NCBI GenBank assembly: GCA_963575745.1
Contig: CAUYUJ010000004.1
Coordinates: 434,001 to 498,000 of the forward strand
Reading direction: 5' to 3'
Source: Prorocentrum cordatum
Taxonomy: Eukaryota
DNA length: 64,000 bases
Part shown: positions 40,900 through 64,000 of the stretch, one piece after another
How positions within the stretch are numbered: the first letter of the stretch is position 1
Layout: each line of letters opens with the position of its first letter
Made by a program: the position numbers and the translations under genes
The notes under the pieces: generated by a model
What the model was told of the DNA's origin: nothing
Databases searched by the model: none
Seen by the model: only the letters and a program-made list of their open reading frames with translations

Positions 40900-40970
<71 letters not shown>

Positions 40971-43829: not shown

Positions 43830-46800
43830 TTGCTAGCACCGTCGCTGCTCGCTCTTCGGCGGGCGGTGCGGACAGGGCCCATGCCACGTCCTGCCGTTGG
43901 CAGGTCTCTCCAGCCTGCACCAGTCTGGTGGTCTTCGGCGCCCTCCACGCCGACTTCGGCGCAAAACTCCTCTCCCTCCTCCTTCGCCTTCCCCCCCTTG
44001 GCCTTTGGGGCGGCGGAGCAGGAGGCCCATCTGAGGAGAGGAGTAGGAGGGGGGCCTCACACGCCGCAGCGCCGCGCCTTGCGTCGTGGCGCAGCGCCAG
44101 CCCTCGTCTCGGGCGTTCAAGGTGCCGCCGCGCCTGGGGTCTCAGCCGCCGCTTCTACGCAAGACTTTCAGCCGCCGCGACAGAGACGCCCGACGGAGGG
44201 CACAGTGGCCAAAGGCGCTCCGACGCGCCGCCCAAGGGCTTCAGCCGCCGCGCAAGCCATGCCCGCCATTCCTGCTGCCAGCGAACCCAATGCCAGCGTG
44301 TTCAACGCCGAAGCACCAGAGGGGTGCCCTGCGAAGATAACTGCGCTCTTGGGAAGGGAAGTGGTGGACGAGGATCTCTCTTACCTCCCCCCAACTCCTT
44401 CTCCTTGCCTCTACTCCGCCACCTGGCTCACCTGTGCCGCTAGGCATGGCGACCACTTTGTGGGCCCCGCCTGCTCCACCGTGGGCGGGGGGGCGTCACT
44501 CGCGGGGCACACGGGCTTTGCCGCCGCCTCGGTTTCCTGGCCTTCGGCTGGAGGCATCGCCGCGGCCACTTCTGCCGACGATGCTGCTCGGACCGCCGGG
44601 GGCGGATACATTCGCGCACCTCCAGGCTTGGACCCGCTGCCTCCTGGGCCTCCGGTCAGGCAGATTGGGCCGCCTCCGGGCCTTGACGTCTTGGAGGTTG
44701 GTTCCCAGAGGCTCAGTGCGGCATGCCCGCGCCGCGGCGCGGCTGCGGCTTGGAGCTCCACGGTCGTCTATCAGGTCCGACCTGGGGCCACGGCGTCAGA
44801 GGCCGCGCTTCCTCTACTGAGGACGCCGCCTCCGCCGCCACAGGGTCGCCCCTGGAGCGGTGCGTTGGCCCTGGTGGAGGCGGGGTGCTCCGTCGTCCCT
44901 CCTCGGGGTTCTTCGGCGGCCATGTCCGACTGCGGCCTTGACGGGGGTAGTCCCTCCTTTTCGAGGGCGGCGCCGCGGTGTGGCTCGAAAGGGGTTGGTA
45001 TGCGCCCTGCCAGCGATGCTGATACGGCCCCGCAGGGAGGGGCTCGTGCCGCCCCCCCAGCCGCCACCGCAGTCCACCAGCCTGGCACCCCGCCGCGGAG
45101 CGGCCCCAGGGCCACCTCGGCCTTACGCGCCGACCTCCACTTGTGGGACCTGCACACGGGCTCCGACACTCAGGGTGTGGATCCGCCGCCAGGCCTCTCC
45201 GGCTCCGAAGCAGGCTCACGGGTGCCGCCTTTGGTCGACCTCCGCGCGGCCCTTGCCTCGGATGGGGTGCAGCTGTTTAGCAGCGGGAGTATGCCGTGCA
45301 CTGCGGCGTCGCCACTTCTGTCCGAGCGCTTCGCGGTCGCCGACGGTGACCGCGCGGCCAGCGGAACACCCCTGAGCGCGGACTGGCATCGTGTCTCCGG
45401 GGATTCGCCCTCCCAGGCCAGGCATCTGAGGCCACCGTCCGGAGTTGCCGTCCCAGAAGCGGATGTTCATGCGCCGCCGCCGCTCCACCGTAGCGCGGTT
45501 GGTCCCGCCTCACTTCGGGCGGGCGCTGCCCGTGGGCGCATGTGGTATGGTGAGCGCGCAGGGCTCCTGCCTTTCACTAACCTCGAGGGCGGTGTCGGCG
45601 CGCCAGCTGCCGGAGGGCCACCTCCCCAGTCAAGCGCCCGGGGCGCTTGCACTTGTAACGCAGCGGGCACTCAAGCAGCGGAGTCAACTCCAGGCCTCGT
45701 CGGCTCCGCCGCGGGCTCCTCGGGTGAAGGCGTCGCCGCAGCCGCAGCCATTCCAGCGCGGCCCCGACGCCTCTCGTGCGATCGGATCCAGGGCCTCGCC
45801 GCGTCGATCCCTGCTCGCGCTCGCGAGCGCCTGCTGGCCGACCCACGTGGTCTGAGCTCTTCTCCGTCACCACTGGTAGGCATGCGCCCTTCCAGCGATG
45901 CTGTTACGGCCCCGCAGGGAGGGGTTCGTGCCGCCGGTGGGAAGTCAGGAGCGGGCTCGTCCACGGCGGCCGCGACGCCCCGGGATGCGGTCCCTGCGTT
46001 CTGCTCTGTCCGAGGGGCCGCTTTCGCCTCGGGCTCCTCGGGCGAATGCGCCGCCGCAGCGTATGACCAATCCAGCGCGGCCCCCCCAGAAGCCTAACTC
46101 GTGCCCCTGAATACGGCATCAGCGGCCTCGACCGTCGTCGCATCCCTGCCTCTGCGCTCGCGTCTTCTTGCTTTTTCTCGGGGGGGGAGAGCGCTGCGCC
46201 CACGAGCCGAATCCTCGTGACGTCCTGAGCCAATATCACTCACGTCCCCAATGGTCCGCATGCGCCCCCCAGCGATGCTGTATTACGGCCCCAGCAGGGA
46301 GGGGCTTAACGTGCGCCGGGGGCATCGTCAGGAGCGGGATCGTCCGCGGCGGCGCCGCCGAGCTCCCCGCGGATGCGTCGTCGAATGGTCTTTGGCTCGG
46401 CTCCGAGGGGCCGCTTTTGCCGCGGGCTCCTCGGATGAAGGCGTCGCCGCAGTCACTGCCACTCCAGCGCGGCCCCGACGCCGCTCGGCCTCCACCAACA
46501 GCGCTGCCGCACTCCCCGCCTTCAGGCTCCGACGAGTGAGTTCGTCGGGTCCGCACTCGGCGTGGAGGACGGCGGGGTCGTCGGGCCGTCGATGGTAGCT
46601 GCCGTGCCGCTCACGCTCCAGCCCATGCTGGTGCAGCTGCCTCGTCTACGGACGCCCTTTCTGGTGCTTCAGAGGCCGCTTCTGGGGCCCCTGTCCAAGG
46701 GAGCCGCCGCTCGCGCTTCAATCGGAGCGTGCGCGAGGAAGCGGCAGCAATGTTGCGCTTCGGAAGTGCACCGCCCGTTGCCGTGCCTCCTGCGGCTGGA

Positions 46801-49218
46801 GCCCCGCCACGGTTTTCAGCTTCAGCCGAAGCTGCGGTGGCCCCGTCGGTAGGCATGTGCTCTGCCGGCGATGCTGGTGCGGCCCCGCAGGAAGGGGTTC
46901 GTGCCGCCGACGGGGTCACCGCGGAGGGGGGTGCACGCGCCGCCCAGGCCAGCGGCTACCAAGGCGGAGCCCCCGAGGAGCCTCCTCGGCTCCAAGCTGT
47001 CGGTGGCCCTGCCATGGACCAAGAGGGCTCCGGGCAGCCCCGAGCCGGCCCCGCCGACCAAGGTGCCTCTTACCCCCAATCTGTTGGAGCCGCCCACGTC
47101 GGGCGGGTCGAACGGGGTGCTGGATGTGCTCGGCCGCCGCCGCCGGGGAGGTCTCATCCCGCGGCCGCCGCCCGCCGCTTCTGGACCGAGCGAGGTCGCG
47201 ATGGTAGGGATGCGCAGGTGCAGCGCGGCTGTTTCGGCGCCGCTGGGCCCCGTGCGTTGTTGAGCTCGCTCGTGGGGCGGTGTTGTCCGCAGCGACATCA
47301 GTTCGCACCTGTCACAAGAATTGTGGCGGCGCTCCGAGCGCGGCGGCTGGCATACTCGTCTCCACGACCGCCACTTGCTCATGGTTCTGAGCCGCGGGGA
47401 ACCTTTAGGCCCCGAGCTGACCCAGATACACCGCGAGGTGGGGCTTCCCTCCCTCGAGCTCCCCATCGCACCGCGCTGGGTCAGTGAGCTGTCGGAGGCG
47501 CTGCGTTTCCGTTTGGCCTACAAGTGGGAATTCCGCACGCCCCGCCACATCAATATCCTGGAGACCACCGTGTTCAAGAGTCTGTGCAAGTACTGTTGCA
47601 TCCGCAACCCTGACTCACGGATCCCTGTTCTCTTGGATTCCCAAGTGGCACTAGGCGCGGCCGCCCGCGGTCGGAGCAGCAGCCCTGGCCTTTCGCACGT
47701 GTTGAGCACCTGCTTGCCCTACATTTTGGGGGGCGGGCTCTGCGTGGGCGGGCTCTACGTCCCGACCGACGTCCACCGAGCGGACGACCCCACGCGCAAT
47801 CGCCCTGTTCGCCCCCCCTCGCGTGTCGAGCCTGCTTGGTTGCTTGACATAGACGAGGGTCGCTTTGAGCGATTCGACATGATAGCGGCCGCCGACGCCG
47901 CCTCCGCGTGCCCGACTTGTCTGTGGGGCCGGTTCGTGCTGCAAGTTCTGGCTCGCAGCCCCGCCGCGGGCGCAGGCCCGCTCGGGCACCCCGAGGATCG
48001 CCACGTGGGAGCGCCAGCCCGGGTCGACAGGGGCGACGCGACGGCCTCCGCCGAGGCCCGCGACGCATATGAAAGCGCCGCGCCGCGCAGGGGGGCTCCT
48101 GTCTCCGTCAAGGTGCCCTCGAGCGCGGCGGCGGTGAGCTTCTCCGCGTCGCGCTGCACTCGCGCCCGTGACAGCCTGCCGGCCGCCCCTCGGGTACCAA
48201 GCCCTTCGCCGTCCCCGCCGGTAGGCATGCGCCCTTCCAGCGATGCTGTTGCGGCCCCGCAGGGAGGGGTTCGCGCCGCCGGTGGAGGGCCAGGAGAGGG
48301 CGCGCCCGAGCGGAGGTCACGCGCCAAGAGCGACGCAATCGCCGCTGCTCGACCTGGTACGCCCAAGGGGGACGCTCACCCCGTCTCGCTTCTGTCGGAG
48401 GCGAACGGCTCGGCTCCAGCTTCGTTGGGGGGTCTTCTGGGTCGTCCGTCCGTCACGACTCAGACTCGCCACCGCCAAGATCGCGCCGCCACACTTGTTG
48501 CCGCGCTCGATTTGCTCCACCTGGAGCGCGGTGCGACCACTGATCGCGTGAACGCTCAGTTTCGACGGATGGGTTGGGCCTGCCATCCCGACCGCGATAG
48601 TCGATCGAGGCCAGCAGGAAATGGCGTGCTCTCTGTGACGCCAAAGCCTTCCTCCTCGGGCCTGGGCGCGATGTTACCGGCCCCGATGCCCCGGCCTCTG
48701 GCGGCGCTACTCGCCGTGCTTTGGGCAGTGGGCTCTTGGCGGCGGGAAGGCGTGACGACGCGAACCGCTCGCGCGGGGTCGCCACTCGGGATTCGGCTCT
48801 CGACGCCTCCCTCGGTGCTCGCCTCCGCGGCATGCCGGGGGAGCGTCGGGGCGCCCCTGGCGCGTCTCCAGACGCAGAGCCGAGCGCGGTCGCTAGCTGC
48901 AGCGACCCAGGGTCGCGGGCTGCGCCACGTTGTACGGTGCAGACCCCCGCGATGCCTACTGCCGCCATGCGACGCACGCAAGCTCGCCCGGAGGCCGACC
49001 TGGGGGCCGCCCGTACCGCGGCCGCGGTGCTCCCGTTCGAGCCAGCACCCTGCCCCCCCTGCCAGGGTGCCGCGCCGACGCCCATAGCGTCGCGCCGCGC
49101 GCCAGCTCTGCACCTGCCCTGCTGGCCGGGCGCTCGCTGGGCGCAGCGGCTATGCTGCGTGCTACCCGCGAGCGGGCTGCCAGTGCGGCCACCGCCGGGG
49201 CGGCACAACACAGGGCCG
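43830..49218 (+). pseudogene. DIRS-like retroelement polyprotein, copy 1, RT deleted
   Basis: Same sequence as copy 2 but lacking 1839 bp and 224 bp at ~47255-47275. It retains the RNase H C-terminal part and a frameshifted J-domain. Confidence 0.85.
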
Positions 49219-49318
49219 NNNNNNNNNNNNNNNNNNNNNNNNNNNNNNNNNNNNNNNNNNNNNNNNNNNNNNNNNNNNNNNNNNNNNNNNNNNNNNNNNN
49301 NNNNNNNNNNNNNNNNNN
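49219..49318. other. Assembly gap (100 N)
   Basis: Run of N. Confidence 1.
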
Positions 49319-52560: not shown

Positions 52561-52629
<69 letters not shown>

Positions 52630-52807
52630 CTCCCCTCTATCGGTCTATCTCTCTCTCTCTGCCCCCCCCCCCCCCCCCACCCCCCCCCCCCCCCCCCTCC
52701 CCCCCCCCCCCCCCCCCCCCCACCCCCCCCCCCCCCCCCCCCCCACCCACCCCCACCCCCCCCCCCACACCCCCACCCCCACCCCCCCCCCCCCCCCCCC
52801 CCCCCAC

Positions 52808-52852
<45 letters not shown>

Positions 52853-52875
52853 ACCCCCCCCCCCCCCCCCCCCAC

Positions 52876-52952
<77 letters not shown>

Positions 52953-53445: not shown

Positions 53446-55533
53446 CGCGCGCGTTCCCGAGGCAAGCTTGCCTCCGTCGCTGCGCGCGCGCGGAGGGGCC
53501 CCTCCGCTAGGGGCCACGGCGACCACGGATGGAAATGAGGCTGCACCGCGTGGAGAGCAACCAAATGCGCGCTGCAGCGCTAACTGCCAAGCAACAGTCT
53601 GGGAGCACATGGCGCTACAGCGCCGCTAACGTTCAATGATGACAATCTGACGCGCTGCAGCGCGAACGTCCTCCTCCTCCTCCATCCTGCTCGCCATCCC
53701 CCTCGTCATCCTCCTCTTCCTCCCCCTCCTATACCTCCTCCTCCTCCTCTTCCTCCTCCTCCTCCTCCCCCTCCTCCTCCTCCGCCTCATGCGCCCCCTC
53801 ATCCTCCCCATCCTCCTCCTCAACCTACCCATCCTCCGTTCATCCGTCTCCCGTCCCTTCATCCTCCCCGTCACCATCGCCTTCATCGTCAACAGCATCA
53901 ATATCATCATCCGCCACGTCACCATCCAACGAGAAACTGCAAGCGAAACTGCGCTGCAGCGCAACACATTAACACATCATGATCCGCGCGCAAACTTTCA
54001 ACCGTGGTCCACGGAGAAGCGCTGCAGCGCAACTCAAACAACACGCTCAACCCCGTTCCCTCCAGCCTTTACCAATCAATCGAACCAGCATGCTTCAGCA
54101 GGCGGTCGCCGAGGCCGACCTCACTCAGGTCACCTTCATCTTCTTGGCGTTCCGCAGCGAGGTCAACGCCTCGTTGAGTTTCTGGTTGGCCACGTCCGAA
54201 GCGGCGATGTCCATCTGACCCCGACCCTGCTACTCATACTCCTCATCCTCCCACATCATCGCCTTCCACCTCCTCCTGATCATCCCCCCTGTCGTCCTTC
54301 TCCCCCGCTGCAGCGGGGGAGTAGCCTGCCACACTCATGAATCCCACCGTCCTCCTTCTCATCCGCCTCCTCATCCACCTGCAGCTCCGCGGTGCGGATC
54401 TGCACCTGCTTCTCCGCTTTCCTGGCGTTCTTCCGCGCCTCCTTCACCTCTGCTGTAGCAGTCGCCGTCGCTCTCGCGCGGGCCTCGCGCAACTCGTCGC
54501 GACGGTCGGCGCGCTTGCGCTTCGAACGGCTTGTCGCAGCGGCGCGCCGCCATTGCGAGCCCAGTGAGGAGGCGGAGGAGGTCCGTTGCCAGCACCCGCT
54601 GCAGCGAACGATGGCGACTGCGACGCGCGAGCCAAGTGAGGAGGAGGAGGAGGAAGGGGGAGGAGGGCATGCCATCGGCAACGCGCAACATGAGCGAATC
54701 ACAGCGCTGCAGCGCGTGACTTGGCAACAACCATGCGGGAGACAAAACTCGACATCGCGAATGATGGCGCTGCAGCGCGTATCGACGAGAAACGACTGGC
54801 ACTCAAGACGAGCACGTCACGCAATGCATGGACACCGCGGCTGCAACTGCACACTCACAAACGCGCCAACGCTACAACGGCACCACAAGTCTGACAGGCG
54901 CTGCAGCGCTGCATCGGAACACAACAGCGCGCAATATCTACGCCACCATCCAGGAAAGCGAGCGCTGCAGCGCTGCATCGTGATCATGATGGCGATGCAA
55001 ACGTTGACCACAAAGGCGCCAGCGCTGCAGCGCCCGCATCCAAGAGAACCCGTCAACATATTTGACTTTCATCCTCCTCGTCGTCCGTGCGAGCCGCGCG
55101 ACCGCCAGGCAAGACCATCGCCACTACCGTTCATATCATCGGCCAGCGTTCCATCCAACCTCGCACTAATCCTCACCATCCTCCTCATTCCTTCTCCTCC
55201 ACATGCTCCTTCTTATCCCCATCGCGCCCGCTGATTGCAGTCGTCTGCAGCTTCTCGGCCCGATAGCTGCCCCGCTCGCCCCCCACTCCCCTCCCCGCGC
55301 GCGCGCGGCCGGGGCGCCAGGGGCCCGCGGGGCCATCGCCGTTCAGGTTTCCTCGACACCTACGCGGCGATCGTCGGCTCCGGGTTCGCCACCCCGCGCT
55401 GGCCCAAGTCGGTCGGGCCGGCGCCTGTGGCCCGTACGACGAGAGCGAGCGTCGGGGCCGACCGTCCGTTCTGAGCGGTGGTCGGTCGGGCAGGCGCGCC
55501 TTTCGGCACCCTGCCTGCCGTGGCCACTGGGCC

Positions 55534-58500
55534 TTGCTAGCACCGTCGCTGCTCGCTCTTCGGCGGGCGGTGCGGACAGGGCCCATGCCACGTCCTGCCG
55601 TTGGCAGGTCTCTCCAGCCTGCACCAGTCTGGTGGTCTTCGGCGCTCTCCACGCCGACTTCGGCGCAAAACTCCTCTCCCTCCTCCTTCGCCTTCTCCCC
55701 CTTGGCCTTTGGGGCGGCGGAGCAGGAGGCCCATCTGAGGAGAGGAGTAGGAGGGGGGCCTCACACGCCGCAGCGCCACGCCTTGCGCCGTGGCGCAGCG
55801 CCAGCCCTCGTCTCGGGCGTTCAAAGTGCCGCCGCGCCTGGGGTCTCAGCCGCCGCTTCTACGCAAGACTTTCAGCCGCCGCGACAGAGACGCCCGACGG
55901 AGGGCACAGTGGCCAAAGGCGCTCCGACGCGCCGCCCAAGGGCTTCAGCCGCCGCGCAAGCCATGCCCGCCATTCCTGCTGCCAGCGAACCCAATGCCAG
56001 CGTGTTCAACGCCGAAGCACCAGAGGGGTGCCCTGCGAAGATAACTGCGCTCTTGGGAAGGGAAGTGGTGGACGAGGATCTCTCTTACCTCCCCCCCACT
56101 CCTTCTCCTTGCCTCTACTTCGCCACCTGGCTCACCTGTGCCGCTAAGCATGGCGACCACTTTGTGGGCCCCGCCTGCTCCACCGTGGGCGGGGGAGCGT
56201 CACTCGCGGGGCACACGGGCTCTGCCGCCGCCTCGGTTTCCTGGCCTTCGGCTGGAGGCATCGCCGCGGCCACTTCTGCCGACGATGCTGCTCGGACCGC
56301 CGGGGGCGGATGCATTCGCGCACCTCCAGGCTTGGACCCGCTGCCTCCTGGGCCTCCGGTCAGGCAGATTGGGCCGCCTCCGGGCCTTGACGTCTTGGAG
56401 GTTGGTTCCCAGAGGCTCAGTGCGGCATGCCCGCGCCGTGGCGCTGCTGCGGCTTGGAGCCCCACGGTCGTCTATCAGGTCCGACCTGGGGCCACGGCGT
56501 CAGAGGCCGCGCTTCCTCTACTGAGGACGCCGCCTCCGCCGCCACAGGGTCGCCCCTGGAGCGGTGCGTTGGCCCTGGTGGAGGCGGGGTGCTCCGTCGT
56601 CCCTCCTCGGGGTTCTTCGGCGGCCATGTCCGACTGCGGCCTTGACGGGGGTAGTCCCTCCTTTTCGAGGGCGGCGCCGCGGTGTGGCTCGAAAGGGGTT
56701 GGTATGCGCCCTGCCAGCGATGCTGATACGGCCCCGCAGGGAGGGGCTCGTACCGCCCCCCCAGCCGCCACCGCAGTCCACCAGCCTGGCACCCCGCCGC
56801 GGAGCGGCCCCAGGGCCACCTCGGCCTTACGCGCCGACCTCCACTTGTGGGACCTGCACACGGGCTCCGACACTCAGGGTGTGGATCCGCCGCCAGGCCT
56901 CTCCGGCTCCGAAGCAGGCTCACGGGTGCCGCCTTTGGTCGACCTCCGCGCGGCCCTTGCCTCGGATGGGGTGCAGCTGTTTAGCAGCGGGAGTATGCCG
57001 TGCACTGCGGCGTCGCCACTTCTGTCCGAGCGCTTCACGGTCGCCGACGGTGACCGCGCGGCCAGCGGAACACCCCTGAGCGCGGACTGGCATCGTGTCT
57101 CCGGGGATTCGCCCTCCCAGGCCAGGCATCTGAGGCCACCGTCCGGAGTTGCCGTCCCAGAAGCGGATGTTCATGCGCCGCCGCCGCTCCACCGTAGCGC
57201 GGTTGGTCCCGCCTCACTTCGGGCGGGCGCTGCCCGTGGGCGCATGTGGTATGGTGAGCGCGCAGGGCTCCTGCCTTTCACTAACCTCGAGGGCGGTGTC
57301 GGCGCGCCAGCTGCCGGAGGGCCACCTCCCCAGTCAAGCGCCCGGGGCGCTTGCACTTGTAACGCAGCGGGCACTCAAGCAGCGGAGTCAACTCCAGGCC
57401 TCGTCGGCTCCGCCGCGGGCTCCTCGGGTGAAGGCGTCGCCGCAGCCGCAGCCATTCCAGCGCGGCCCCGACGCCTCTCGTGCGATCGGATCCAGGGCCT
57501 CGCCGCGTCGATCCCTGCTCGCGCTCGCGAGCGCCTGCTGGCCGACCCTCGTGGTCTGAGCTACTCTCCGTCACCACTGGTAGGCATGCGCCCTTCCAGC
57601 GATGCTGTTACGGCCCCGCAGGGAGGGGTTCGTGCCGCCGGTGGGAAGTCAGGAGCGGGCTCGTCCACGGCGGTCTGCTCTGTCCGAGGGGCCGCTTTCG
57701 CCACGGGCTCCTCGGGCGAATGCGCCGCCGCAGCCGTTGCCACTCCAGCGCGGCCCCGACGCCTCTCGTGCGATCGGATCCAGGGCCTCGCCGCGTCGAT
57801 CCCTGCTCGCGCTCGCGAGCGCCTGCGGGCCGACCCTCGTGGTCTGAGCCCTTCTCCGTCCCCACTGGTCGGCATGCGCCCCTCCAGCGATGCTGTTACG
57901 GCCCCGCAGGGAGGGGTTCGTGCCGCCGGTGGGACGTCAGGAGCGGGCTCGTCCGCGGCGGCCGCGACTCCCCGGGATGCGGTCCCTGCGTTCCGCTCTG
58001 TCCGAGGGGCCGCTTTCGCCGCGGGCTCCTCGGATGAAGGCGTCGCCGCAGTCACTGCCACTCCAGCGCGGCCCCGACGCCGCTCGGCCTCCACCAACAG
58101 CGCTGCCGCACTCCCCGCCTTCAGGCTCCGACGAGTTCGTCGGGTCCGCACTCGGCGTGGAGGACGGCGGGGTCGTCGGGCCGTCGATGGTAGCTGCCGT
58201 GCCGCTCACGCTCCAGCCCATGCTGGTGCAGCTGCCTCGTCTTCGGACGCCCTTTCTGGTGCTTCAGAGGCCGCTTCTGGGGCCCCTGTCCAAGGGAGCC
58301 GCCGCTCGCGCTTCAATCGGAGCGCGCGCGAGGATGCGGCAGCAATGTTGCGCTTCGGAAGTGCACCGCCCGTTGTCGTGCCTCCTGCGGCTGGAGCCCC
58401 GCCACGGTTTTCAGCTTCAGCCGAAGCTGCGGGGGCCCCGTCGGTAGGCATGTGCTCTGCCGGCGATGCTGGTGCGGCCCCGCAGGAAGGGGCTCGTGCC

Positions 58501-61500
58501 GCCGACGGGGTCACCGCGGAGGGGGGTGCACGCGCCGCCCAGGCCAGCGGCTACCAAGGCGGAGCCCCCGACGAGCCTCCTCGGCTCCAAGCTGTCGGTG
58601 GCCCTGCCCTGGACCAAGAGGGCTCCGGGCAGCCCCGAGCCGGCCCCGCCGACCAAGGTGCCTCTTACCCCCAATCTGTTGGAGCCGCCCACGTCGGGCG
58701 GGTCGAACGGGGTGCTGGATGTGCTCGGCCGCCGCCGCCGGGGAGGTCTCATCCCGCGGCCGCCGCCCGCCGCTTCTGGACCGAGCGAGGTCGCGATGGT
58801 AGGGATGCGCAGGTGCAGCGCGGCTGTTTCGGCGCCGCTGGGCCCCGTGCGTGCCGCCATGGTGATTCTCGCTCGCTCCCAGGCGCTTCCCCCGCTCCTC
58901 CTGGCCATCCTGGTCCCAGCGTGGGCGTCGGGGCGCGCCCTGCGCCCTTCGCGCCTTGCCCTTTTCCCAGCACATCCCGTACCAGCACTGGCACTGGCAG
59001 GTCTGCGCCTTTCGTGGCCGATCTGTCCGCCTTGCTGCGCCTGTTTCCAGGCGCCAGCATCGACGTCACCCACTGGGCCGCTGCTCTTGCCCAGGTCGGG
59101 ATGGGGACTCGATGCTCCCTTGCCGCTTTTACCCGCACATCTTTCTGCGCGCTGGAATGGGACGACTCGTACTTGTCGGGGTCGGCTCCCCGCGATCCTT
59201 GGCCGTGCCCTCCCTCGCCGCCTCTTCCGCCGCCACCTGGTCACCTTACGGGTCGCGCGCGGGAGCGCTGGCGTGTGAGGCGCGCCGCCCGCACGTTGTC
59301 GCAGCATGCTGTCGTTGCGCTCAACTGGCTCACCTTGGGTCATCCCAGCTTCGCTCCCGCCGAAGCTCGGGTGCGGGAAACGGTCACACCCTGCCAGGAG
59401 GGAGTTCGCAGTCGCCTCGAGCGTCTGTGTCGGATCGCAGTTCGCCTTGCCCGTGGTGGCAAGAGCGACCTTGGTCGGGCTTTCGCCAAGTTCGACTCCA
59501 CCGAAGTCTCGCTCCATGGCCTGGCTACCCATGTTGCAGCTCTTGAGGCTTCGTTCACCTCTTCCTCACAAGTGCCCGCCCCCATGCGGCAACTCCCCGT
59601 CAGCGCGACGCCCCTGGCAAGCTCGTTGGCGGTCGCGGCAGGCTGGGACTCCACCCAGGCTGAGCCTTTCGACCTTCGGGCCCAGGCGTCCCGCATCAAG
59701 TGGGATTACTCTCCTACGTTTGATCCCACTCCGTACTTGTCCGACGATCTGGTACGTTCCGCCTTTCATGACCCCGACGTCATGCGGCTACCAGAGGACG
59801 AGTGGCCTTCGGGCTTTTCGGGTGCTCGTGTGCACATGGACCGCGAGCAGCTGTGGGAGCTCCTGCGCAAGTGGGACTCTTGTGGCGCCCTGTATCTGAC
59901 TCCCTCCGACAACCTCGCCTGGGACGAGGCTTGTGGAGCGTTCAGGGTCCCGAAGGACGAGGCTCATGACCGTCTCATCCTGAATCCGACGGTAGTAAAC
60001 AGTCGTTGCAGCAGCGTGTCCTCCAGCACTCAGCGCCTCGGCCAGGGTTTCCTCCTGTGCCGCCTGGGGCTCGCGCCCGGGGAATGGCTGGTGGTTTCGT
60101 GTGACGACCTGCGCGAGTTCTACTACACGTTCAAGGTCCCGCCCGCTCGTGCACGCCGCAACGCCCTCCGCGTCAAGCTGCCCAGCTCGCGGTTCAGAGG
60201 CTTCAACGCGTGGCGGGCAGACCTTGAGGGGTTGGACGTTTCTCCCTGCCTTAATGCGCTGGCCATGGGTGACAACATGGCAGTGGAGATCGCCAACTCC
60301 GCACACGAGGGCGTGCTGCGCAGCTTCGGCGCGCTCCGGCCTTCCGAGCAGGCTGTGCATCGCCTGCCGTTCCCTCGGGGGCCGTACGTCGAGATGTTAA
60401 ACATCGACGACCACACGGGCTTTCAGAAGCTCTCGTGGCGCGGGAGCGCCCCGCGCCCCGACGACCCGACACGCCGCGACAGGGAGGTCTTTGCTGCGTG
60501 CGATCGCGGCTACCCCCAGGTGGGTCTCATTCAGCACCCCGGGAAGAGAGCCAGGGGCGAGACCCACAAAGTCGTTGTCGGCGCCGAGGTGGAGGGCAGG
60601 ATCGGCATCGTGTGTGCTCCCCTGGTTCGCACTGTGGCCCTTTGCCGCTTGACTCTGATTCAGGTGTTCCTCGGTCGCTCGACCCGGGCGTTGTTGAGCT
60701 CGCTCGTGGGTTGTTGGGTGCAGGTGTTTTTGTATCGTCGTCCCATCCTGTCGATATTCACTCACATCTACACCTTCATCACGACACTTCCCGACGACGG
60801 GCTTGAGTATGAGCTCCCGTCTTCGGTTCGCGACGAATTGCAAGCCTGCACCTACCTTGCCTTCGTTGCGATGACCGACCTTCGGGCGACGCCTTGCCCT
60901 GAAGTGTTCGGCACGGATGCCTCCCTCGGCTGGGGCGGTGTTGTCCGCAGCGACATCAGTTCGCACCTGTCACAAGAATTGTGGCGGCGCTCCGAGCACG
61001 GCGGCTGGCATACTCGTCTCCACGACCGCCACTTGCTCATGGTTCTGAGCCGCGGGGAACCTTTAGGCCCCGAGCTGACCCAGATACACCGCGAGGTGGG
61101 GCTTCCCTCCCTCGAGCTCCCCATCGCACCGCGCTGGGTCAGTGAGCTGTCGGAGGCGCTGCGTTTCCGTTTGGCCTACAAGTGGGAATTCCGCACGCCC
61201 CGCCACATCAATATCCTGGAGACCACCGTGTTCAAGAGTCTGTGCAAGTACTGTTGCATCCGCAACCCTGACTCACGGATCCCTGTTCTCTTGGATTCCC
61301 AAGTGGCACTAGGCGCGGCCGCCCACGGTCGGAGCAGCAGCCCTGGCCTTTCGCACGTGTTGAGCACCTGCTTGCCCTACATTTTGGGGGGCGGGCTCTA
61401 CATGGGCGGGCTCTACGTCCCGACCGACGTCCACCGAGCGGACGACCCCACGCGCAATCGCCCTGTTCGCCCCCCCTCGCGTGTCGAGCCTGCTTGGTTG

Positions 61501-64000
61501 CTTGACATAGACGAGGGTCGCTTTGAGCGATTCGACATGATAGCGGCCGCCGACGCCGCCTCCGCGTACCCGACTTGTCTGTGGGGCCGGTTCGTGCTGC
61601 AAGTTCTGGCTCGCAGCCCCGCCGCGGGCGCAGGCCCGCTCGGGCACCCCGAGGATCGCCACGTGGGAGCGCCAGCCCGGGTCGACAGGGGCGACGCGAC
61701 GGCCTCCGCCGAGGCCCGCGACGCATATGAAAGCGCCGCGCCGCGCAGGGGGGCTCCTGTCTCCGTCAAGGTGCCCTCGAGCGCGGCGGCGGTGAGCTTC
61801 TCCGCGTCGCGCTGCACTCGCGCCCGTGACAGCCTGCCGGCCGCCCCTCGGGTACCAAGCCCTTCGCCGTCCCCGCCGGTAGGCATGCGCCCTTCCAGCG
61901 ATGCTGTTGCGGCCCCGCAGGGAGGGGTTCGCGCCGCCGGTGGAGGGCCAGGAGAGGGCGCGCCCGAGCGGAGGTCACGCGCCAAGAGCGACGCAATCGC
62001 CGCTGCTCGACCTGGTACGCCCAAGGGGGACGCTCACCCCGTCTCGCTTCTGTCGGAGGCGAACGGCTCGGCTCCAGCTTCGTTGGGGGGTCTTCTGGGT
62101 CGTCCGTCCGTCACGACTCAGACTCGCCACCGCCAAGATCGTGCCGCCAAACTTGTTGCCGCGCTCGATTTGCTCCACCTGGAGCGCGGTGCGACCACTG
62201 ATCGCGTGAACGCTCAGTTTCGACGGATGGGTTGGGCCTGCCATCCCGACCGCGATAAGTCGATCGAGGCCAGCAGGAAATGGCGTGCTCTCTGTGACGC
62301 CAAAGCCTTCCTCCTCGGGCCTGGGCGCGATGTTACCGGCCCCGATGCCCCGGCCTCTGGCGGCGCTACTCGCCGTGCTTTGGGCAGAGGGCTCTTGGCG
62401 GCGGGAAGGCGTGACGACGCGAACCGCTCGCGCGGGGTCGCCACTCGGGATTCGGCTCTCGACGCCTCCCTCGGTGCTCGCCTCCGCGGCATGCCGGGGG
62501 AGCGTCGGAGCGCCCCTGGCGCGTCTCCAGACGCAGAGCCGAGCGCGGTCGCTAGCTGCAGCGACCCAGGGTCGCGGGCTGCGCCACGTTGTACGGTGCA
62601 GACCCCCGCGATGCCTACTGCCGCCATGCGACGCACGCAAGCTCGCCCGGAGGCCGACCTGGGGGCCGCCCGTACCGCGGCCGCGGTGCTCCCGCCCTTT
62701 CGAGCCAGCACCCTGCCCCCCCTGCCAGGGTGCCGCGCCGACGCCCATAGCGTCGCGCCGCGCGCCAGCTCTGCACCTGCCCTGCTGGCCGGGCGCTCGC
62801 TGGGCGCAGCGGCTATGCTGCGTGCTACCCGCGAGCGGACTGCCAGTGCGGCCACCGCCGGGGCGGCACATCACAGGGCCGTGCTTCCGTGGGGCCACAG
62901 CGCAGAGCGCAGCGAGGTGTCGCCGGCTCCCAGCTTTGCCGACTCCTGCTGCGCCGGCCAGCGTGCCGACTCTTGCGCCGCCCAGCTCACCGCGTCCCGC
63001 GGCGACCAGCTCACTGACTTGCAGCCCTCCCAGCTCACCGACTCCCGCACCGACCAGCTCGCCGACTCCCGCGCCGACCAGATCGCCGACTCGCGTGCCG
63101 AGGGGCTCGCCGACGCCCGCACCGACCAGCTCGCTGACGCCTTCACCCGTTCCGACTCCCGTGCCGATCCTCTCACCGGATTAGCATTGCGCACCAGCCG
63201 GGTCGTTGGCCCGACGGCCACGGTTGCGAGGCGCGTGCGTGACGAACGGCGCGCTCTGGCGCGGTTCCGTGCCTCGGTCGATGTTCTCGACGCCGCTCTT
63301 ACCGAAGTTGAATTCGGTCGAGGCGCGGAGGCTTGGGGTCCAAGTGCAGGAGAGCTGGCTGAGCTTTTGCAGACGACACTGGCCGAGCTCGAGCGCCAGA
63401 AGGCTGCGTTGCGCATCGCCCGCTCTCGCACTGCCGAGTGCGTCAGAGGGTCCGCTTCCGCCTCGGGCTTTTCGGGTGGAGGCGCCGCCGCAGCCGCTGC
63501 CGGCGCACCCCCGAGAGCTCCCGCCACGGCTGGTAGCGCTACTTTTGCAGCTCAAGCGAAGGAGCGTGCGGATAAGCACACGGCTAGCTATCGCGACGTG
63601 GTCGAGGCTAGGGCTCATTCGGGCGCCCAGGCGTCGCATCCGCGCAAGCGCCGTGGCGTCGGGCGCCCGTGCTCTGCGGCGCCCGTCACGCCACGGACCG
63701 CCATTAGTTGCGATGAGCGCTCCCGCTCCGCAGCACCTGCCGCCACCCGCTCGGCCGCGTTTTCCGAGACGCTGTGCGCTGTTGACCGCAGGCGGCGCGA
63801 GCACTCCCCAGGACTCAGGCCTCTGATCCTGGACGGCACGGACCGCCAGCCGGAAGCCGCGCCGAGCACCGGCGAGGTCGTCGAGGCCCCCCGCGCCGAG
63901 CAACGCGGCCGCACCTCGCGTCGCAAGCGCAGGCGTGTTCGGGCTTCCGCCGGAGCGGCAGCTACCACTCCTGCCAATCCCTCTGGTCAAGAGCCGCCCG
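55534..64000 (+). CDS. DIRS-like retrotransposon polyprotein (>2,600 aa, 3' incomplete): RT, RNase H, J-domain
   Basis: Positions 1 mod 3. I found no stop after TAG 55264 in the segments translated, and the frame's absence from the ORF track fits an ORF running off the end. Candidate ATGs at 55585 and 55963. RT: GAFRVPKD..DRLILNP (59941), DDLREFYY, LAMGDNMAVE, NIDDH (60400). RNase H: TDAS (60913), HINILE, LLDSQVALGA..GRSSS, RADDPTR (61441). No tyrosine recombinase seen inside the window. Confidence 0.88.
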   Translation, partial: MLAPSLLALRRAVRTGPMPRPAVGRSLQPAPVWWSSALSTPTSAQNSSPSSFAFSPLAFGAAEQEAHLRRGVGGGPHTPQRHALRRGAAPALVSGVQSAAAPGVSAAASTQDFQPPRQRRPTEGTVAKGAPTRRPRASAAAQAMPAIPAASEPNASVFNAEAPEGCPAKITALLGREVVDEDLSYLPPTPSPCLYFATWLTCAAKHGDHFVGPACSTVGGGASLAGHTGSAAASVSWPSAGGIAAATSADDAARTAGGGCIRAPPGLDPLPPGPPVRQIGPPPGLDVLEVGSQRLSAACPRRGAAAAWSPTVVYQVRPGATASEAALPLLRTPPPPPQGRPWSGALALVEAGCSVVPPRGSSAAMSDCGLDGGSPSFSRAAPRCGSKGVGMRPASDADTAPQGGARTAPPAATAVHQPGTPPRSGPRATSALRADLHLWDLHTGSDTQGVDPPPGLSGSEAGSRVPPLVDLRAALASDGVQLFSSGSMPCTAASPLLSERFTVADGDRAASGTPLSADWHRVSGDSPSQARHLRPPSGVAVPEADVHAPPPLHRSAVGPASLRAGAARGRMWYGERAGLLPFTNLEGGVGAPAAGGPPPQSSARGACTCNAAGTQAAESTPGLVGSAAGSSGEGVAAAAAIPARPRRLSCDRIQGLAASIPARARERLLADPRGLSYSPSPLVGMRPSSDAVTAPQGGVRAAGGKSGAGSSTAVCSVRGAAFATGSSGECAAAAVATPARPRRLSCDRIQGLAASIPARARERLRADPRGLSPSPSPLVGMRPSSDAVTAPQGGVRAAGGTSGAGSSAAAATPRDAVPAFRSVRGAAFAAGSSDEGVAAVTATPARPRRRSASTNSAAALPAFRLRRVRRVRTRRGGRRGRRAVDGSCRAAHAPAHAGAAASSSDALSGASEAASGAPVQGSRRSRFNRSAREDAAAMLRFGSAPPVVVPPAAGAPPRFSASAEAAGAPSVGMCSAGDAGAAPQEGARAADGVTAEGGARAAQASGYQGGAPDEPPRLQAVGGPALDQEGSGQPRAGPADQGASYPQSVGAAHVGRVERGAGCARPPPPGRSHPAAAARRFWTERGRDGRDAQVQRGCFGAAGPRACRHGDSRSLPGASPAPPGHPGPSVGVGARPAPFAPCPFPSTSRTSTGTGRSAPFVADLSALLRLFPGASIDVTHWAAALAQVGMGTRCSLAAFTRTSFCALEWDDSYLSGSAPRDPWPCPPSPPLPPPPGHLTGRARERWRVRRAARTLSQHAVVALNWLTLGHPSFAPAEARVRETVTPCQEGVRSRLERLCRIAVRLARGGKSDLGRAFAKFDSTEVSLHGLATHVAALEASFTSSSQVPAPMRQLPVSATPLASSLAVAAGWDSTQAEPFDLRAQASRIKWDYSPTFDPTPYLSDDLVRSAFHDPDVMRLPEDEWPSGFSGARVHMDREQLWELLRKWDSCGALYLTPSDNLAWDEACGAFRVPKDEAHDRLILNPTVVNSRCSSVSSSTQRLGQGFLLCRLGLAPGEWLVVSCDDLREFYYTFKVPPARARRNALRVKLPSSRFRGFNAWRADLEGLDVSPCLNALAMGDNMAVEIANSAHEGVLRSFGALRPSEQAVHRLPFPRGPYVEMLNIDDHTGFQKLSWRGSAPRPDDPTRRDREVFAACDRGYPQVGLIQHPGKRARGETHKVVVGAEVEGRIGIVCAPLVRTVALCRLTLIQVFLGRSTRALLSSLVGCWVQVFLYRRPILSIFTHIYTFITTLPDDGLEYELPSSVRDELQACTYLAFVAMTDLRATPCPEVFGTDASLGWGGVVRSDISSHLSQELWRRSEHGGWHTRLHDRHLLMVLSRGEPLGPELTQIHREVGLPSLELPIAPRWVSELSEALRFRLAYKWEFRTPRHINILETTVFKSLCKYCCIRNPDSRIPVLLDSQVALGAAAHGRSSSPGLSHVLSTCLPYILGGGLYMGGLYVPTDVHRADDPTRNRPVRPPSRVEPAWLLDIDEGRFERFDMIAAADAASAYPTCLWGRFVLQVLARSPAAGAGPLGHPEDRHVGAPARVDRGDATASAEARDAYESAAPRRGAPVSVKVPSSAAAVSFSASRCTRARDSLPAAPRVPSPSPSPPVGMRPSSDAVAAPQGGVRAAGGGPGEGAPERRSRAKSDAIAAARPGTPKGDAHPVSLLSEANGSAPASLGGLLGRPSVTTQTRHRQDRAAKLVAALDLLHLERGATTDRVNAQFRRMGWACHPDRDKSIEASRKWRALCDAKAFLLGPGRDVTGPDAPASGGATRRALGRGLLAAGRRDDANRSRGVATRDSALDASLGARLRGMPGERRSAPGASPDAEPSAVASCSDPGSRAAPRCTVQTPAMPTAAMRRTQARPEADLGAARTAAAVLPPFRASTLPPLPGCRADAHSVAPRASSAPALLAGRSLGAAAMLRATRERTASAATAGAAHHRAVLPWGHSAERSEVSPAPSFADSCCAGQRADSCAAQLTASRGDQLTDLQPSQLTDSRTDQLADSRADQIADSRAEGLADARTDQLADAFTRSDSRADPLTGLALRTSRVVGPTATVARRVRDERRALARFRASVDVLDAALTEVEFGRGAEAWGPSAGELAELLQTTLAELERQKAALRIARSRTAECVRGSASASGFSGGGAAAAAAGAPPRAPATAGSATFAAQAKERADKHTASYRDVVEARAHSGAQASHPRKRRGVGRPCSAAPVTPRTAISCDERSRSAAPAATRSAAFSETLCAVDRRRREHSPGLRPLILDGTDRQPEAAPSTGEVVEAPRAEQRGRTSRRKRRRVRASAGAAATTPANPSGQEPP
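62149..62313 (+). other. DnaJ/J-domain within the retroelement polyprotein
   Basis: KLVAALDLLHLERGATTDRVNAQFRRMGWACHPDRDKSIEASRKWRALCDAKAFLL; HPD motif with typical helix II/III spacing. Confidence 0.85.
62941..63175 (+). repeat. 24-bp coding tandem repeat (DSRxDQLA)n
   Basis: gactcccgcrccgaccagctcgcc units, in frame. Confidence 0.8.

What the first reader, a model, noticed from the sequence alone, without database searches (positions are those of the whole stretch)
56690..61945. Five in-frame 54-nt structured repeats with covarying closing stems punctuate the retroelement ORF
Seen: core GGYATGYG-CYCTKCC-RGCGATGCT-GDTRCGGCCCCGCA-GGRAGGG-GYT-CGYRCC at 56701, 57583, 57871, 58447 and 61882. All are 54 nt and in the same frame (GMRPSSDAVTAPQGGVRA), and two of them bracket the RT-RNase H block. 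Predicted fold: GGCATG/CGTGCC, CCCTTCC/GGGAGGG and two apical mini-hairpins. The flanks differ between copies yet stay paired around one bulged base: GGGGT-t/GCCCC, CACTGGT-a/GCCGGTG, CCCACTGGT-c/GCCGGTGGG, GCCCCGTCGGT-a/GCCGACGGGGT, CCGCCGGT-a/GCCGGTGG. The 56701 copy also has GGT/ACC replacing GGC/GCC. This compensation points to selection on RNA or ssDNA structure. I do not recognise a hammerhead, HDV or SECIS core. Hypotheses: a new ribozyme, recoding or packaging element; an attC-like hairpin substrate letting a tyrosine recombinase shuffle modules in frame; or a coding-compatible palindromic mobile unit. The peptide PQGG could also be a di-Gly protease site. This is the best candidate for an undescribed system in the window.
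Basis: partly seen in the sequence, partly recalled or inferred. Interest (0 to 1): 0.85.

Follow-up and report, generated by a model that had tools for sequence, protein, structure and literature searches.

The report
Repeated RNA hairpins inside a retroelement gene
A long retrotransposon gene of a GC-rich marine microbe carries six copies of an ~80-base hairpin whose base-pairing is kept while the encoded amino acids drift, so it looks like an undescribed RNA signal of unknown job and not a protein motif.

Summary
The 54-nt core occurs five times at the stated places. A sixth, diverged copy lies at 58790-58867, and six more (two decayed) sit in a truncated duplicate at 44985-48289. Each copy is the centre of a 78-110 nt sense-strand hairpin: 95% of pair cells are kept, and 7 of 28 pairs show double changes. 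The antisense strand and DNA energy parameters fold it much less well.

The peptide is not what is conserved. pN/pS among the six copies is 0.88, and the sixth copy is read in another frame of the same 2911-codon ORF.

The flanked block is a true RT-RNase H by predicted fold. It belongs to the SymbioDIRS-like tyrosine-recombinase retroelements, but no recombinase was found in the window. Of 80 metagenomic relatives, 39 carry a 2A peptide after RNase H. This element keeps only a relic of it, and none of the 80 has the hairpin.

There was no Rfam match, no protein hits and no RNA data. My best reading is a lineage-specific cis-acting RNA hairpin family, perhaps a multivalent protein-binding signal. 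Neutral upkeep of a quasi-palindrome by template switching is a serious rival. The ribozyme, attC, protease-site and mobile-unit ideas are unsupported.

The parts
55267..63999 (+). Stop-free reading frame of 2911 codons, running off the window end. It contains all six hairpins.
   Evidence: Codon-position GC periodicity is seen only in 59599-61500 and is flat elsewhere.
56689..56766 (+). Hairpin H1 (core 56701-56754). Outer stem GGGGT/GCCCC, bulged T, GGT/ACC pair.
   Evidence: z -2.45; 89.9 bits
57571..57648 (+). Hairpin H2 (core 57583-57636). First unit of a 288-nt tandem duplication.
   Evidence: z -4.43; 97.7 bits
57859..57936 (+). Hairpin H3 (core 57871-57924). Second unit of the 288-nt tandem duplication, bulged C.
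   Evidence: z -5.45; 97.0 bits
58435..58512 (+). Hairpin H4 (core 58447-58500). Its outer stem carries two double-compensated pairs relative to H2.
   Evidence: z -4.22; 92.7 bits
58790..58867 (+). Hairpin H6, a diverged sixth copy. It differs from the consensus at 28 of 78 positions, yet 24 of 28 pairs are kept and the stem extends to about 58776-58882. The long ORF reads it in a different frame from the other five.
   Evidence: z -4.40; 72.9 bits; P 5e-5
58868..61869 (+). Pol block: conserved N-terminal region (WPCPPS at 59200-59217), then reverse transcriptase (IDD motif within 60385-60414) and RNase H (59599-61500 modelled).
   Evidence: Homologs. AF2 model pLDDT 86.5. Foldseek top hits are HERV-K, HIV-1 and MLV RT, E about 1e-13. 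Pfam is silent.
61579..61638 (+). Degenerate relic of a 2A peptide (LWGRFVLQVLARSPAAGAGP). It aligns with the relatives' ...LLLL.GD[VI]E.NPGP.
61870..61947 (+). Hairpin H5 (core 61882-61935), downstream of RNase H and the 2A relic.
   Evidence: z -3.08; 92.4 bits. In diverged contigs of 2 listed runs 61867-61980 is kept (14 other letters in 114) while 61649-61866 is replaced (joint in 3 runs). 61932 C>T in those contigs restores an A-U pair.
62167..62313 (+). Probable J-domain (HPD at 62242-62250) in the module after H5.
   Evidence: Pfam DnaJ E 1.3e-4, below the curated cut-off. Atlas nearest clusters are DnaJ, score 0.89, a lead only.
44985..48289 (+). Hairpin copies in the truncated duplicate: 44985-45062, 45867-45944, 46245-46326 (decayed, with indels), 46840-46917, 47210-47257 (cut by a 2069-bp deletion), 48212-48289.

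Best explanation
The repeats are a lineage-specific family of sense-strand RNA hairpins. Each has about 28 conserved pairs, one bulge and fixed internal loops, and each copy adds its own outer pairing. They are embedded in, and translated as part of, the single giant ORF of a SymbioDIRS-like retroelement.

Shown: the copies exist, they fold, and pairing is kept through single and double changes. The fold needs G.U pairs and so works only on the coding strand. The encoded peptide is not constrained.

Inferred: the hairpins act in cis on the element's full-length RNA. The mechanism I commit to is a multivalent platform of six sites, each with a conserved bulge and loops. A hairpin- or dsRNA-binding protein, either the element's own disordered N-terminal product or a host factor, would bind there. 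Binding would mark the RNA for ribonucleoprotein assembly and reverse transcription.

An expected side effect follows. Stable stems with 54 nt of identity are pause and copy-choice sites for reverse transcriptase. Deletions, duplications and module swaps should therefore cluster at them.
For: - Repeats and folds.
- Strand asymmetry: z -2.45 to -5.45 on the + strand against +0.07 to -4.03 on the - strand. The model scores 72.9-97.7 bits on + and 16.6-32.9 on -.
- Pair conservation: 95.1% of cells paired against 41.5-55.4% when slid. Seven of 28 pairs change on both sides, and 0 of 500 shuffles reach this.
- Neutral-substitution simulation: each of 8 rows keeps more pairs than expected. H6 keeps 24 of 28 against a mean of 14.5, P 5e-5; the others give P 0.00025 to 0.013.
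- Three U.G pairs and the bulge are invariant in all 8 rows.
- Peptide not constrained: pN/pS 0.88, differences such as [7,7,6] per codon position, and H6 in another frame.
- Conservation beyond the window: diverged contigs of 2 listed runs keep 61867-61980 (14 other letters in 114), while a joint seen in 3 runs replaces 61649-61866 by 272 other letters. The window's only unpaired cell in H5 (61932) reads T, which is paired, in all contigs of X1, X4 and X2 there and in most of X3 (depth 43.2 of 65.1).
- The hairpins are translated through: there is no in-frame ATG between H6 and the conserved Pol N-terminus.
- Breakpoints at hairpin borders: 57580, 57639, 61867, 61877-61879. The 2069-bp deletion in the duplicate starts in the 3' arm of H6.
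Against: - There are only six independent copies, all from one element. No R-scape-grade test was possible.
- The region is generally structured. 13% (+) and 10% (-) of 362 windows of 86 nt have z < -2, so a strong hairpin alone is not unusual here.
- The outer-stem 'compensation' could arise in one step by template switching, without selection.
- None of 80 relatives has the element, so it is not needed by the wider family.
- No RNA run was available, so expression, retention in mRNA and any processing are unknown.
- No binding protein is identified.
- Breakpoint enrichment is weak: 4 of 30 listed joint ends, where about 2 are expected, and the tables are truncated.
Confidence: 0.45

Rival explanations
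1. Neutral quasi-palindrome. A dispersed internal repeat happened to be hairpin-forming. Its arms are kept complementary and extended outward by intra-strand template switching during replication or reverse transcription, and by gene conversion between copies. The fold has no function.
For: - Each copy has its own outer extension made of flank sequence, up to about 45 bp in H6. This is what stem extension by template switching predicts (PMC8794818; I saw only the search listing and the start of the abstract).
- The double changes sit in three adjacent pairs, columns 6-8 with 70-72. One event could make them.
- The region has many other local hairpins on both strands.
- The host segments show no coding periodicity and evolve fast, so there is little cost.
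- Relatives do without the element.
Against: - Template switching makes perfect Watson-Crick arms and erases bulges. Yet the bulge, the AU/CC internal loop (5 of 6 copies) and three U.G wobbles persist in all rows, including H6.
- The pairing is strand-asymmetric.
- H5 with its flank is as conserved in diverged contigs (14 of 114 differ) as RNase H coding sequence (76 of about 670), while the sequence between them is replaced.
Confidence: 0.25
2. Hairpin introner or other mobile palindromic insertion. The units would be short inverted-repeat elements like the non-canonical hairpin introns of Amoebophrya. They would be inserted into the ORF and either spliced out or tolerated in frame.
For: - Amoebophrya introners have 8-20 nt inverted repeats joining the intron ends, with no family-specific repeat motif, plus 3-5 nt direct repeats (PMC7789003, passages read).
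- Here the outer arms are copy-specific and 8-25 nt long.
- Five copies also contain GT...CAG spanning 42 nt in phase 0 (read).
Against: - No copy lies outside this element in 64 kb or in 80 relatives.
- H2, H3 and H5 share 180-300 nt of homologous flank, so they spread by segment duplication, not insertion.
- The genomic ORF stays open through all copies.
- H6 lacks the AG.
- Flanking direct repeats are only 2-4 nt of GC-rich sequence, which is not significant.
- No RNA data.
Confidence: 0.1
3. Peptide-level module. The encoded VGMRPSSDAVTAPQGGVRAAGG would be a linker or protease cleavage site that cuts the polyprotein into modules, functionally replacing the lost 2A.
For: - Five of six copies share one frame and an in-frame Met.
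- H5 lies about 80 codons after the 2A relic, and H6 lies before Pol.
- G-M, D-A and A-P-Q-x-G-x-R are kept in the five in-frame copies.
Against: - pN/pS is 0.88. H4 differs from H2 by about 14 non-synonymous and about 4 synonymous changes.
- H6 keeps the fold but is translated in another frame.
- No protease domain was found in the ORF.
- There are no protein-level relatives of the unit: 0 hits.
- The shared frame is expected from segment duplication, and one of the three frames is closed by TAG in GGTAGG.
Confidence: 0.08
4. DNA-level recombination site. Folded single-stranded DNA hairpins with an extrahelical base, like attC, would be used by the element's tyrosine recombinase to shuffle modules.
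For: - The stem is imperfect, with one conserved bulged base.
- Relatives encode a tyrosine recombinase after the 2A (the profile was built from 33 relatives).
- Some homology breakpoints fall at hairpin borders.
Against: - No recombinase homolog was found in any of 635 ORFs of the window or by tblastn.
- With DNA parameters, 2 of 5 copies fold no better than shuffles, and the - strand does not fold.
- Pairing relies on G.T.
- The base of the stem is GGT.GGCATG/CGTGCCGCC, not the attC core triplets (these are recalled, not taken from a call).
- The A/B difference is a local diverged unit, not a module swap.
Confidence: 0.05

Closest known systems
Cis-acting structured RNA elements inside coding regions of retroviruses, retrotransposons and RNA viruses (e.g. 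HIV-1 RRE, dispersed packaging-signal hairpins of ssRNA viruses); named from my own knowledge
   Same: Sense-strand structure overlaid on an ORF. Pairing is conserved while codons change. Several related stem-loops occur per genome, with bulges or loops as likely protein contacts.
   Different: No sequence or Rfam relation. There are six near-identical 54-nt cores in direct orientation within one RNA. The function, the partner and even expression are untested.
SymbioDIRS-type tyrosine-recombinase retrotransposons of Symbiodinium (de Mendoza et al. 2018, PMC5890265; passages read)
   Same: The Pol is homologous at 31-47% identity. The RT is too divergent for Pfam, as that paper states. The relatives show the A...B-A-B repeat layout.
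   Different: The window element lacks the DNMT insert, has only a relic of the 2A and shows no recombinase within the window. It has about 70% GC against a median of 49% in the relatives. Only it has the hairpins.
2A 'StopGo' peptides (D[VI]ExNPGP)
   Same: In 39 of 80 relatives a 2A separates Pol from the next protein. H5 lies about 80 codons downstream of the homologous, now degenerate, site. Both 'punctuate' a polyprotein ORF.
   Different: 2A acts as a peptide in the ribosome exit tunnel. The hairpin's peptide is unconstrained and has no NPGP. No evidence shows that the hairpin separates products.
Hairpin introner elements of Amoebophrya (Farhat et al. 2021, PMC7789003; passages read)
   Same: Short elements within genes whose copy-specific inverted ends form a stem.
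   Different: Those are RNA-seq-verified introns spread through thousands of host genes. Here the copies are confined to one retroelement, stay in an open frame and share a conserved 54-nt core. Splicing is untested.
Integron attC sites and Rickettsia palindromic elements (both recalled from knowledge)
   Same: attC is an imperfect hairpin with extrahelical bases used by a tyrosine recombinase. RPEs are palindromic units tolerated in frame within ORFs.
   Different: No attC core motifs, a weak DNA fold and no recombinase nearby. RPEs sit in many unrelated genes, unlike this unit.

Membership tests
Any Rfam family (hammerhead, HDV, twister, SECIS, miRNA precursors and others) | Covariance-model score at or above the family's gathering threshold | tested here: not met
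   Scanning 22 kb at E<=1 gave no match at any hairpin. Scanning single hairpins at E<=10 gave only mir-1914 at 19.6 bits (cut-off 86) and mir-4874 at 15 bits (cut-off 70).
Integron attC | Conserved core sites at the stem base (RYYYAAC / GTTRRRY; recalled) | tested here: not met
   The stem base is GGT-N-GGCATG / CGTGCC-GCC in all copies.
Integron attC | Folded single-stranded DNA substrate with extrahelical bases | tested here: inconclusive
   One bulged base is conserved. DNA-parameter folds give z 0.21, -1.48, -4.32, -2.60 and -0.44 on the + strand, and 0.39 to -1.09 on the - strand.
Integron attC | A cognate tyrosine recombinase encoded alongside | tested here: not met
   A profile built from 33 relatives' recombinases found 0 hits in 635 window ORFs of 60 aa or more at E<=10. 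The best tblastn E-value was 0.31. The ORF runs off the window, so a recombinase downstream is not excluded.
DIRS-like (tyrosine-recombinase) retrotransposon, SymbioDIRS group | Pol with RT and RNase H homologous to the group | tested here: met
   tblastn gave E down to 2e-118 against 80 loci. The AF2 model has pLDDT 86.5. Foldseek hits to retroviral RT-RNase H have E about 1e-13.
DIRS-like (tyrosine-recombinase) retrotransposon, SymbioDIRS group | Tyrosine recombinase ORF | tested here: not met
   (within the window only).
DIRS-like (tyrosine-recombinase) retrotransposon, SymbioDIRS group | Split direct repeats A...B-A-B | tested here: inconclusive
   They are seen in relatives such as L002, L018, L037 and L077. 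They are not seen in the window's self-comparison, but the element's 3' end lies outside the window.
2A peptide | D[VI]ExNPGP motif at the separation point | tested here: not met
   The hairpin peptide has no NPGP. The homologous site 61579-61638 reads ...ARSPAAGAGP.
Amoebophrya-type hairpin introner | Removed from mRNA, shown by RNA-seq junctions | not testable with these tools
   No RNA holder was listed among the 22 runs.
Amoebophrya-type hairpin introner | Many copies in unrelated host genes | tested here: not met
   All hits in the 64-kb window lie in the element and its duplicate. No whole genome is held.
Peptide repeat or cleavage-site module | Purifying selection on the amino-acid sequence and a fixed reading frame | tested here: not met
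   pN/pS is 0.88 and H6 is in another frame.

The most novel reading that the evidence does not exclude
The hairpins are RNA-level punctuation that took over from the lost 2A. An RNase III/Dicer-type or other structure-specific nuclease, or a hairpin-bound factor that stalls or releases ribosomes, would act at each hairpin. The single giant transcript or ORF would then be resolved into separate module products (disordered N-terminal units, Pol, J-domain protein). That would be a retroelement counterpart of the tRNA-punctuation model. The same sites would double as copy-choice hotspots that shuffle modules in frame.
Probability: 0.1. Interest if true: 0.85.

Novelty: new variant of a known kind. 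Interest (0 to 1): 0.55.

Why it matters
Tyrosine-recombinase retroelements are among the least understood retrotransposons. I know of no cis-acting RNA signal for packaging, priming or expression in them; my literature searches did not address that point directly.

A repeated, covarying hairpin family inside the ORF gives a concrete, testable candidate. It appears in a lineage that has just lost the 2A device its relatives use to split the polyprotein. If the hairpins bind a protein or are processed, they would show how a single-ORF element controls its products or marks its RNA.

If instead they are kept only by template switching, the locus is a clean natural example of mutation-driven hairpin maintenance inside coding DNA.

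Either way, the case warns that 'in-frame repeat' does not mean 'peptide motif'.

Tried and rejected
- **Whole genome:** none is held for this window.
- **Earlier scan notes:** nothing by place, sequence or words.
- **First DNA pattern:** I wrote it with wrong spacers and it found nothing. Corrected.
- **Exact-pattern scans:** Metagenome contigs 0 and viral contigs 0. Genome contigs gave 4 hits, in three Actinobacteria and one uncultured-bacterium MAG. Only the seeded 24-mer matches there, so these are chance.
- **Covariance model on 80 relatives:** 660,100 bases searched, only one hit at E 8.8.
- **Weak model hits at 42791 and 54496:** rejected, fold z -0.41.
- **Protein searches with the 196-aa repeat unit:** 0 hits among 8000 scored candidates of 107-343 aa, a list probably saturated by low-complexity words. 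0 hits in 1.84 billion representatives.
- **Pfam:** silent on the ORF, its pieces and on P0002-P0006, apart from a weak DnaJ hit. A PDB profile search found nothing.
- **RNA runs:** no RNA holder listed, so expression, ends and splicing could not be examined.
- **H6's ATG as the Pol start:** rejected, it is out of frame.
- **A hairpin relic near 63382:** rejected, only the 65-nt spacer repeat is there.
- **Gag-like ORF1 of relative L020:** no homolog in the window.
- **De novo search for analogous dispersed hairpin repeats in the 80 relatives:** only terminal and tandem repeats turned up.
- **Summed contig depth:** it is higher over the hairpin bins, but the tool warns that depth cannot rank parts, so I did not use it.
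- **Two literature calls failed** on a too-short search term and were reworded.
Full report
**1. What is there**

The region 55267-63999 is one stop-free frame of 2911 codons that runs off the window. The core motif of the finding matches nine places, all on the + strand, where 0.01 are expected. Five are at the stated coordinates. Four more lie in a second copy of the region.

A BLAST self-comparison shows that 37521-49318 and 49319-about 62980 are a tandem segmental duplication. The upstream copy (A, element part 41690-49218) is 98.7-99% identical to the downstream one (B). A has a 2069-bp deletion of B 58853-60920, which removes the RT, and it carries frameshifts. A is therefore a decaying duplicate, and the window contains one intact element.

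**2. The repeat is a hairpin, and there is a sixth copy**

With 12-16 nt of flank, each B copy folds as RNA into a single rod. It has an outer stem, one bulged base, GGCAUG/CGUGCC, an 8-bp C-rich/G-rich stem, then GCG/CGC and GCU(G)/(C)GGC closing a 3-5 nt loop. MFE is -45.9 to -59.1 kcal/mol and z is -2.45 to -5.45.

The reverse complement folds much less well: z -0.46, -0.36, -4.03, -1.41 and +0.07. This is because several pairs are G.U. With DNA parameters the + strand gives z 0.21, -1.48, -4.32, -2.60 and -0.44.

I read a diverged copy by eye at 58790-58867 and confirmed it with a covariance model built from the copies (R1). It scores 72.9 bits, against 88.7-97.7 for the other nine full copies. 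It folds into a longer hairpin spanning 58776-58882 (-68.6 kcal/mol, z -4.40).

The model found nothing else convincing in the 64 kb with filters off. It picked up a decayed copy with indels (46245-46326, 41.2 bits) and a truncated one (47210-47257) in duplicate A. It also gave two weak hits, at 42791 and 54496, whose fold is not better than shuffles.

**3. Pairing is conserved beyond chance; the peptide is not**

The alignment has 8 rows: six independent copies plus two duplicate-A variants. In it, 95.1% of 224 pair cells are standard pairs, against 41.5-55.4% when the 3' partners are slid by 1-3 columns. Seven of 28 pairs have changes on both sides (14 cells). None of 500 column shuffles reaches any of the five measures (RNAalifold agrees).

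Columns 7/71 show CG, GC, UA and AU. The 56701 copy has U-A where the others have C-G, and its duplicate in A has the U.G intermediate.

I ran a simple null. The same numbers of transitions and transversions per copy were placed at random on the consensus. This leaves far fewer pairs than observed. H6 keeps 24 of 28 against a simulated mean of 14.5 (P 5e-5); the other rows give P 0.00025 to 0.013.

In contrast, Nei-Gojobori counts over the 15 copy pairs give pS 0.288 and pN 0.252, a ratio of 0.88. Differences are spread evenly over codon positions, for example [7,7,6]. H6 lies in a different frame of the long ORF: it is read as GRDGRDAQVQRG... and not VGMR.... So 'five in-frame copies' is true, but the frame is not what is conserved.

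H2, H3 and H5 share 180-300 nt of homologous flank, and H2/H3 are a 288-nt tandem duplication. One frame of the unit is closed by TAG in GGTAGG. The shared frame is therefore expected from how the copies arose.

**4. Context**

Pfam is silent on the ORF apart from a sub-threshold DnaJ hit. Even so, the block between H6 and H5 has homologs:
- five ENA proteins at 32-40% identity;
- 80 metagenome loci.

A 27-sequence alignment gave an AlphaFold model of 59599-61500 with pLDDT 86.5. Its best PDB matches are HERV-K, HIV-1 and MLV RT-RNase H (E about 1e-13, about 620 aligned columns).

The relatives have a DNMT-like insert, a tyrosine recombinase and A...B-A-B split repeats. This matches the SymbioDIRS-Dnmt3 elements of de Mendoza et al. 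2018, who also note that Pfam misses this RT (PMC5890265, passages read).

The window's element lacks the DNMT insert. No recombinase of this family was found in any window ORF. It may lie beyond base 64000.

Only 59599-61500 shows coding GC periodicity (GC2 about 0.50, GC3 about 0.78). The segments that carry H1-H4, H6 and H5 are flat at about 0.7 for all three positions and low in complexity. Yet the frame stays open, and there is no in-frame ATG between H6 and the conserved Pol N-terminus. The hairpins are therefore translated through.

**5. The 2A link**

In 39 of 80 relatives a canonical 2A (...RW.R.LLLL.GD[VI]E.NPGP) follows RNase H, and in 33 of them an ORF of 250 aa or more, the recombinase, follows it. 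The window aligns there with LWGRFVLQVLARSPAAGAGP (61579-61638), a relic without NPGP. The closest GC-rich relative, L020, has also lost the motif.

H5 starts 77 codons after the relic. This juxtaposition is suggestive. It is not evidence that the hairpin replaces 2A.

**6. Evidence from other samples**

Sixteen public runs from 11 studies hold part of the stretch; none is on record as RNA. I laid contigs of four runs at 80% likeness or more. They show a multi-copy, diverged family. In X1, 1166 contigs were laid: 284 at 99% or more, 210 at 95-99%, 460 at 90-95% and 212 below 90%.

In three runs a variant replaces 61649-61866 by 272 other letters. The listed pieces, from two of those runs, keep 61867-61980 (H5 with its flanks; 14 other letters in 114). 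This is about the same divergence as its RNase H part (76 in about 670).

At 61932, the window's only unpaired cell in H5 (A.C), all contigs there in X1, X4 and X2 and most in X3 (depth 43.2 of 65.1) read T, which restores A-U.

Joint or loose ends fall at 57580, 57639, 61867 and 61877-61879, the hairpin borders. That is only 4 of 30 listed joint ends where about 2 are expected, and the tables are truncated. I treat this as a hint only.

The hairpin model found nothing in the 80 relatives. The 196-aa unit has no protein relatives. There are no Rfam matches.

**7. Interpretation**

*Shown:* this is a conserved, sense-strand-specific hairpin family embedded in the ORF. It is constrained as structure and not as peptide.

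*Inferred:* it is a cis-acting RNA element of the element's genomic RNA. I favour a multivalent protein-binding signal for RNP assembly or packaging. The reasons are six similar sites, an invariant bulge, fixed internal loops, invariant U.G pairs and indifference to reading frame. Reverse-transcriptase pausing and copy-choice at the repeats would be a by-product. This could explain the 288-nt unit expansion, the deletion that starts in the 3' arm of H6 and the variant junctions.

*The main rival* is mutation-driven maintenance. Template switching at an existing hairpin copies one flank into the other. It can extend stems and create 'compensatory' changes in one step (PMC8794818, listing and abstract start only). 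Several observations fit this rival:
- the stem extensions are copy-specific;
- the double changes cluster in three adjacent pairs;
- the region has general excess structure, with 13% (+) and 10% (-) of 362 windows at z < -2 and other hairpins.

Against it stand the persistent bulge, loops and wobbles, the strand asymmetry, and the conservation of H5 in diverged copies.

*Lesser rivals:*
- Amoebophrya-like hairpin introners (PMC7789003, passages read);
- a peptide linker or cleavage site;
- an attC-like DNA site.

Each fails at least one tested feature (see the membership table).

**8. Limits**

There are six independent copies from one element, and no genome. No RNA data exist, and the contig sequences are not retrievable. 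The covariation statistics are my own simple controls, not R-scape. Literature claims rest on the passages named. I found no paper linking 2A or hairpin repeats with DIRS-like elements in three searches; these cover only the held library.

Noticed in passing
L001-L063 (e.g. L001:8010, L003:12794); window 61579-61638: 39 of 80 metagenomic relatives of this Pol carry a canonical 2A peptide (GD[VI]E.NPGP) between RNase H and the tyrosine-recombinase ORF. The window keeps only a degenerate relic. One literature search listed no paper joining NPGP or 2A-like with DIRS, Ngaro or tyrosine recombinase among the 12 shown.
   Followed up: partly
window 62167-62313: A probable J-domain with an HPD motif lies in the module downstream of H5. 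Pfam DnaJ gives E 1.3e-4, below the cut-off, and the nearest Atlas clusters are DnaJ at 0.89. This is an unusual cargo for a retroelement ORF.
   Followed up: partly
window 37521-49318 and 49319-~62980: A tandem segmental duplication of about 11.8 kb. The low-complexity part is 91-93% identical and the element part 98.7-99%. The upstream copy lost 2069 bp (B 58853-60920). The left breakpoint lies in the 3' arm of hairpin H6, with a GCC microhomology.
   Followed up: partly
window 45970-46440 vs 57674-58040: The second 288-nt unit (spacer plus H3) is near-identical to the first in copy B. In copy A it is strongly diverged, with indels. This suggests either homogenisation in B or decay in A.
   Followed up: partly
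window 62958-63149: Six tandem 24-nt repeats encoding an octapeptide repeat (DQLADSRA-like) inside the same ORF. Contigs from other runs show many length variants here (table 5c).
   Followed up: no
window 57382, 57670, 57988, 63430 (and 45678, 45996, 46389): A second dispersed 65-nt repeat family (D7) follows H2 and H3 by about 20-50 nt, precedes H2 by about 190 nt, and recurs in the distal module at 63430 without a hairpin.
   Followed up: partly
window 60790-60915: Three consecutive strong hairpins inside the RT-RNase H coding sequence (z -4.77). They are not repeated elsewhere.
   Followed up: no
window 4236-11672: A chain of same-frame ORFs separated by single in-frame stops, in a lower-GC stretch (52-55%). 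There is a weak integrase-core (rve) hit at 4236-7430. This is probably another, decayed retroelement.
   Followed up: no
window 50219-50330: A CCT/AGG low-complexity inverted repeat gives dozens of sub-threshold miRNA-model hits on both strands. These are composition artefacts.
   Followed up: no
window 52570-52900: Long poly-C and C-rich tracts between the two duplicate units.
   Followed up: no
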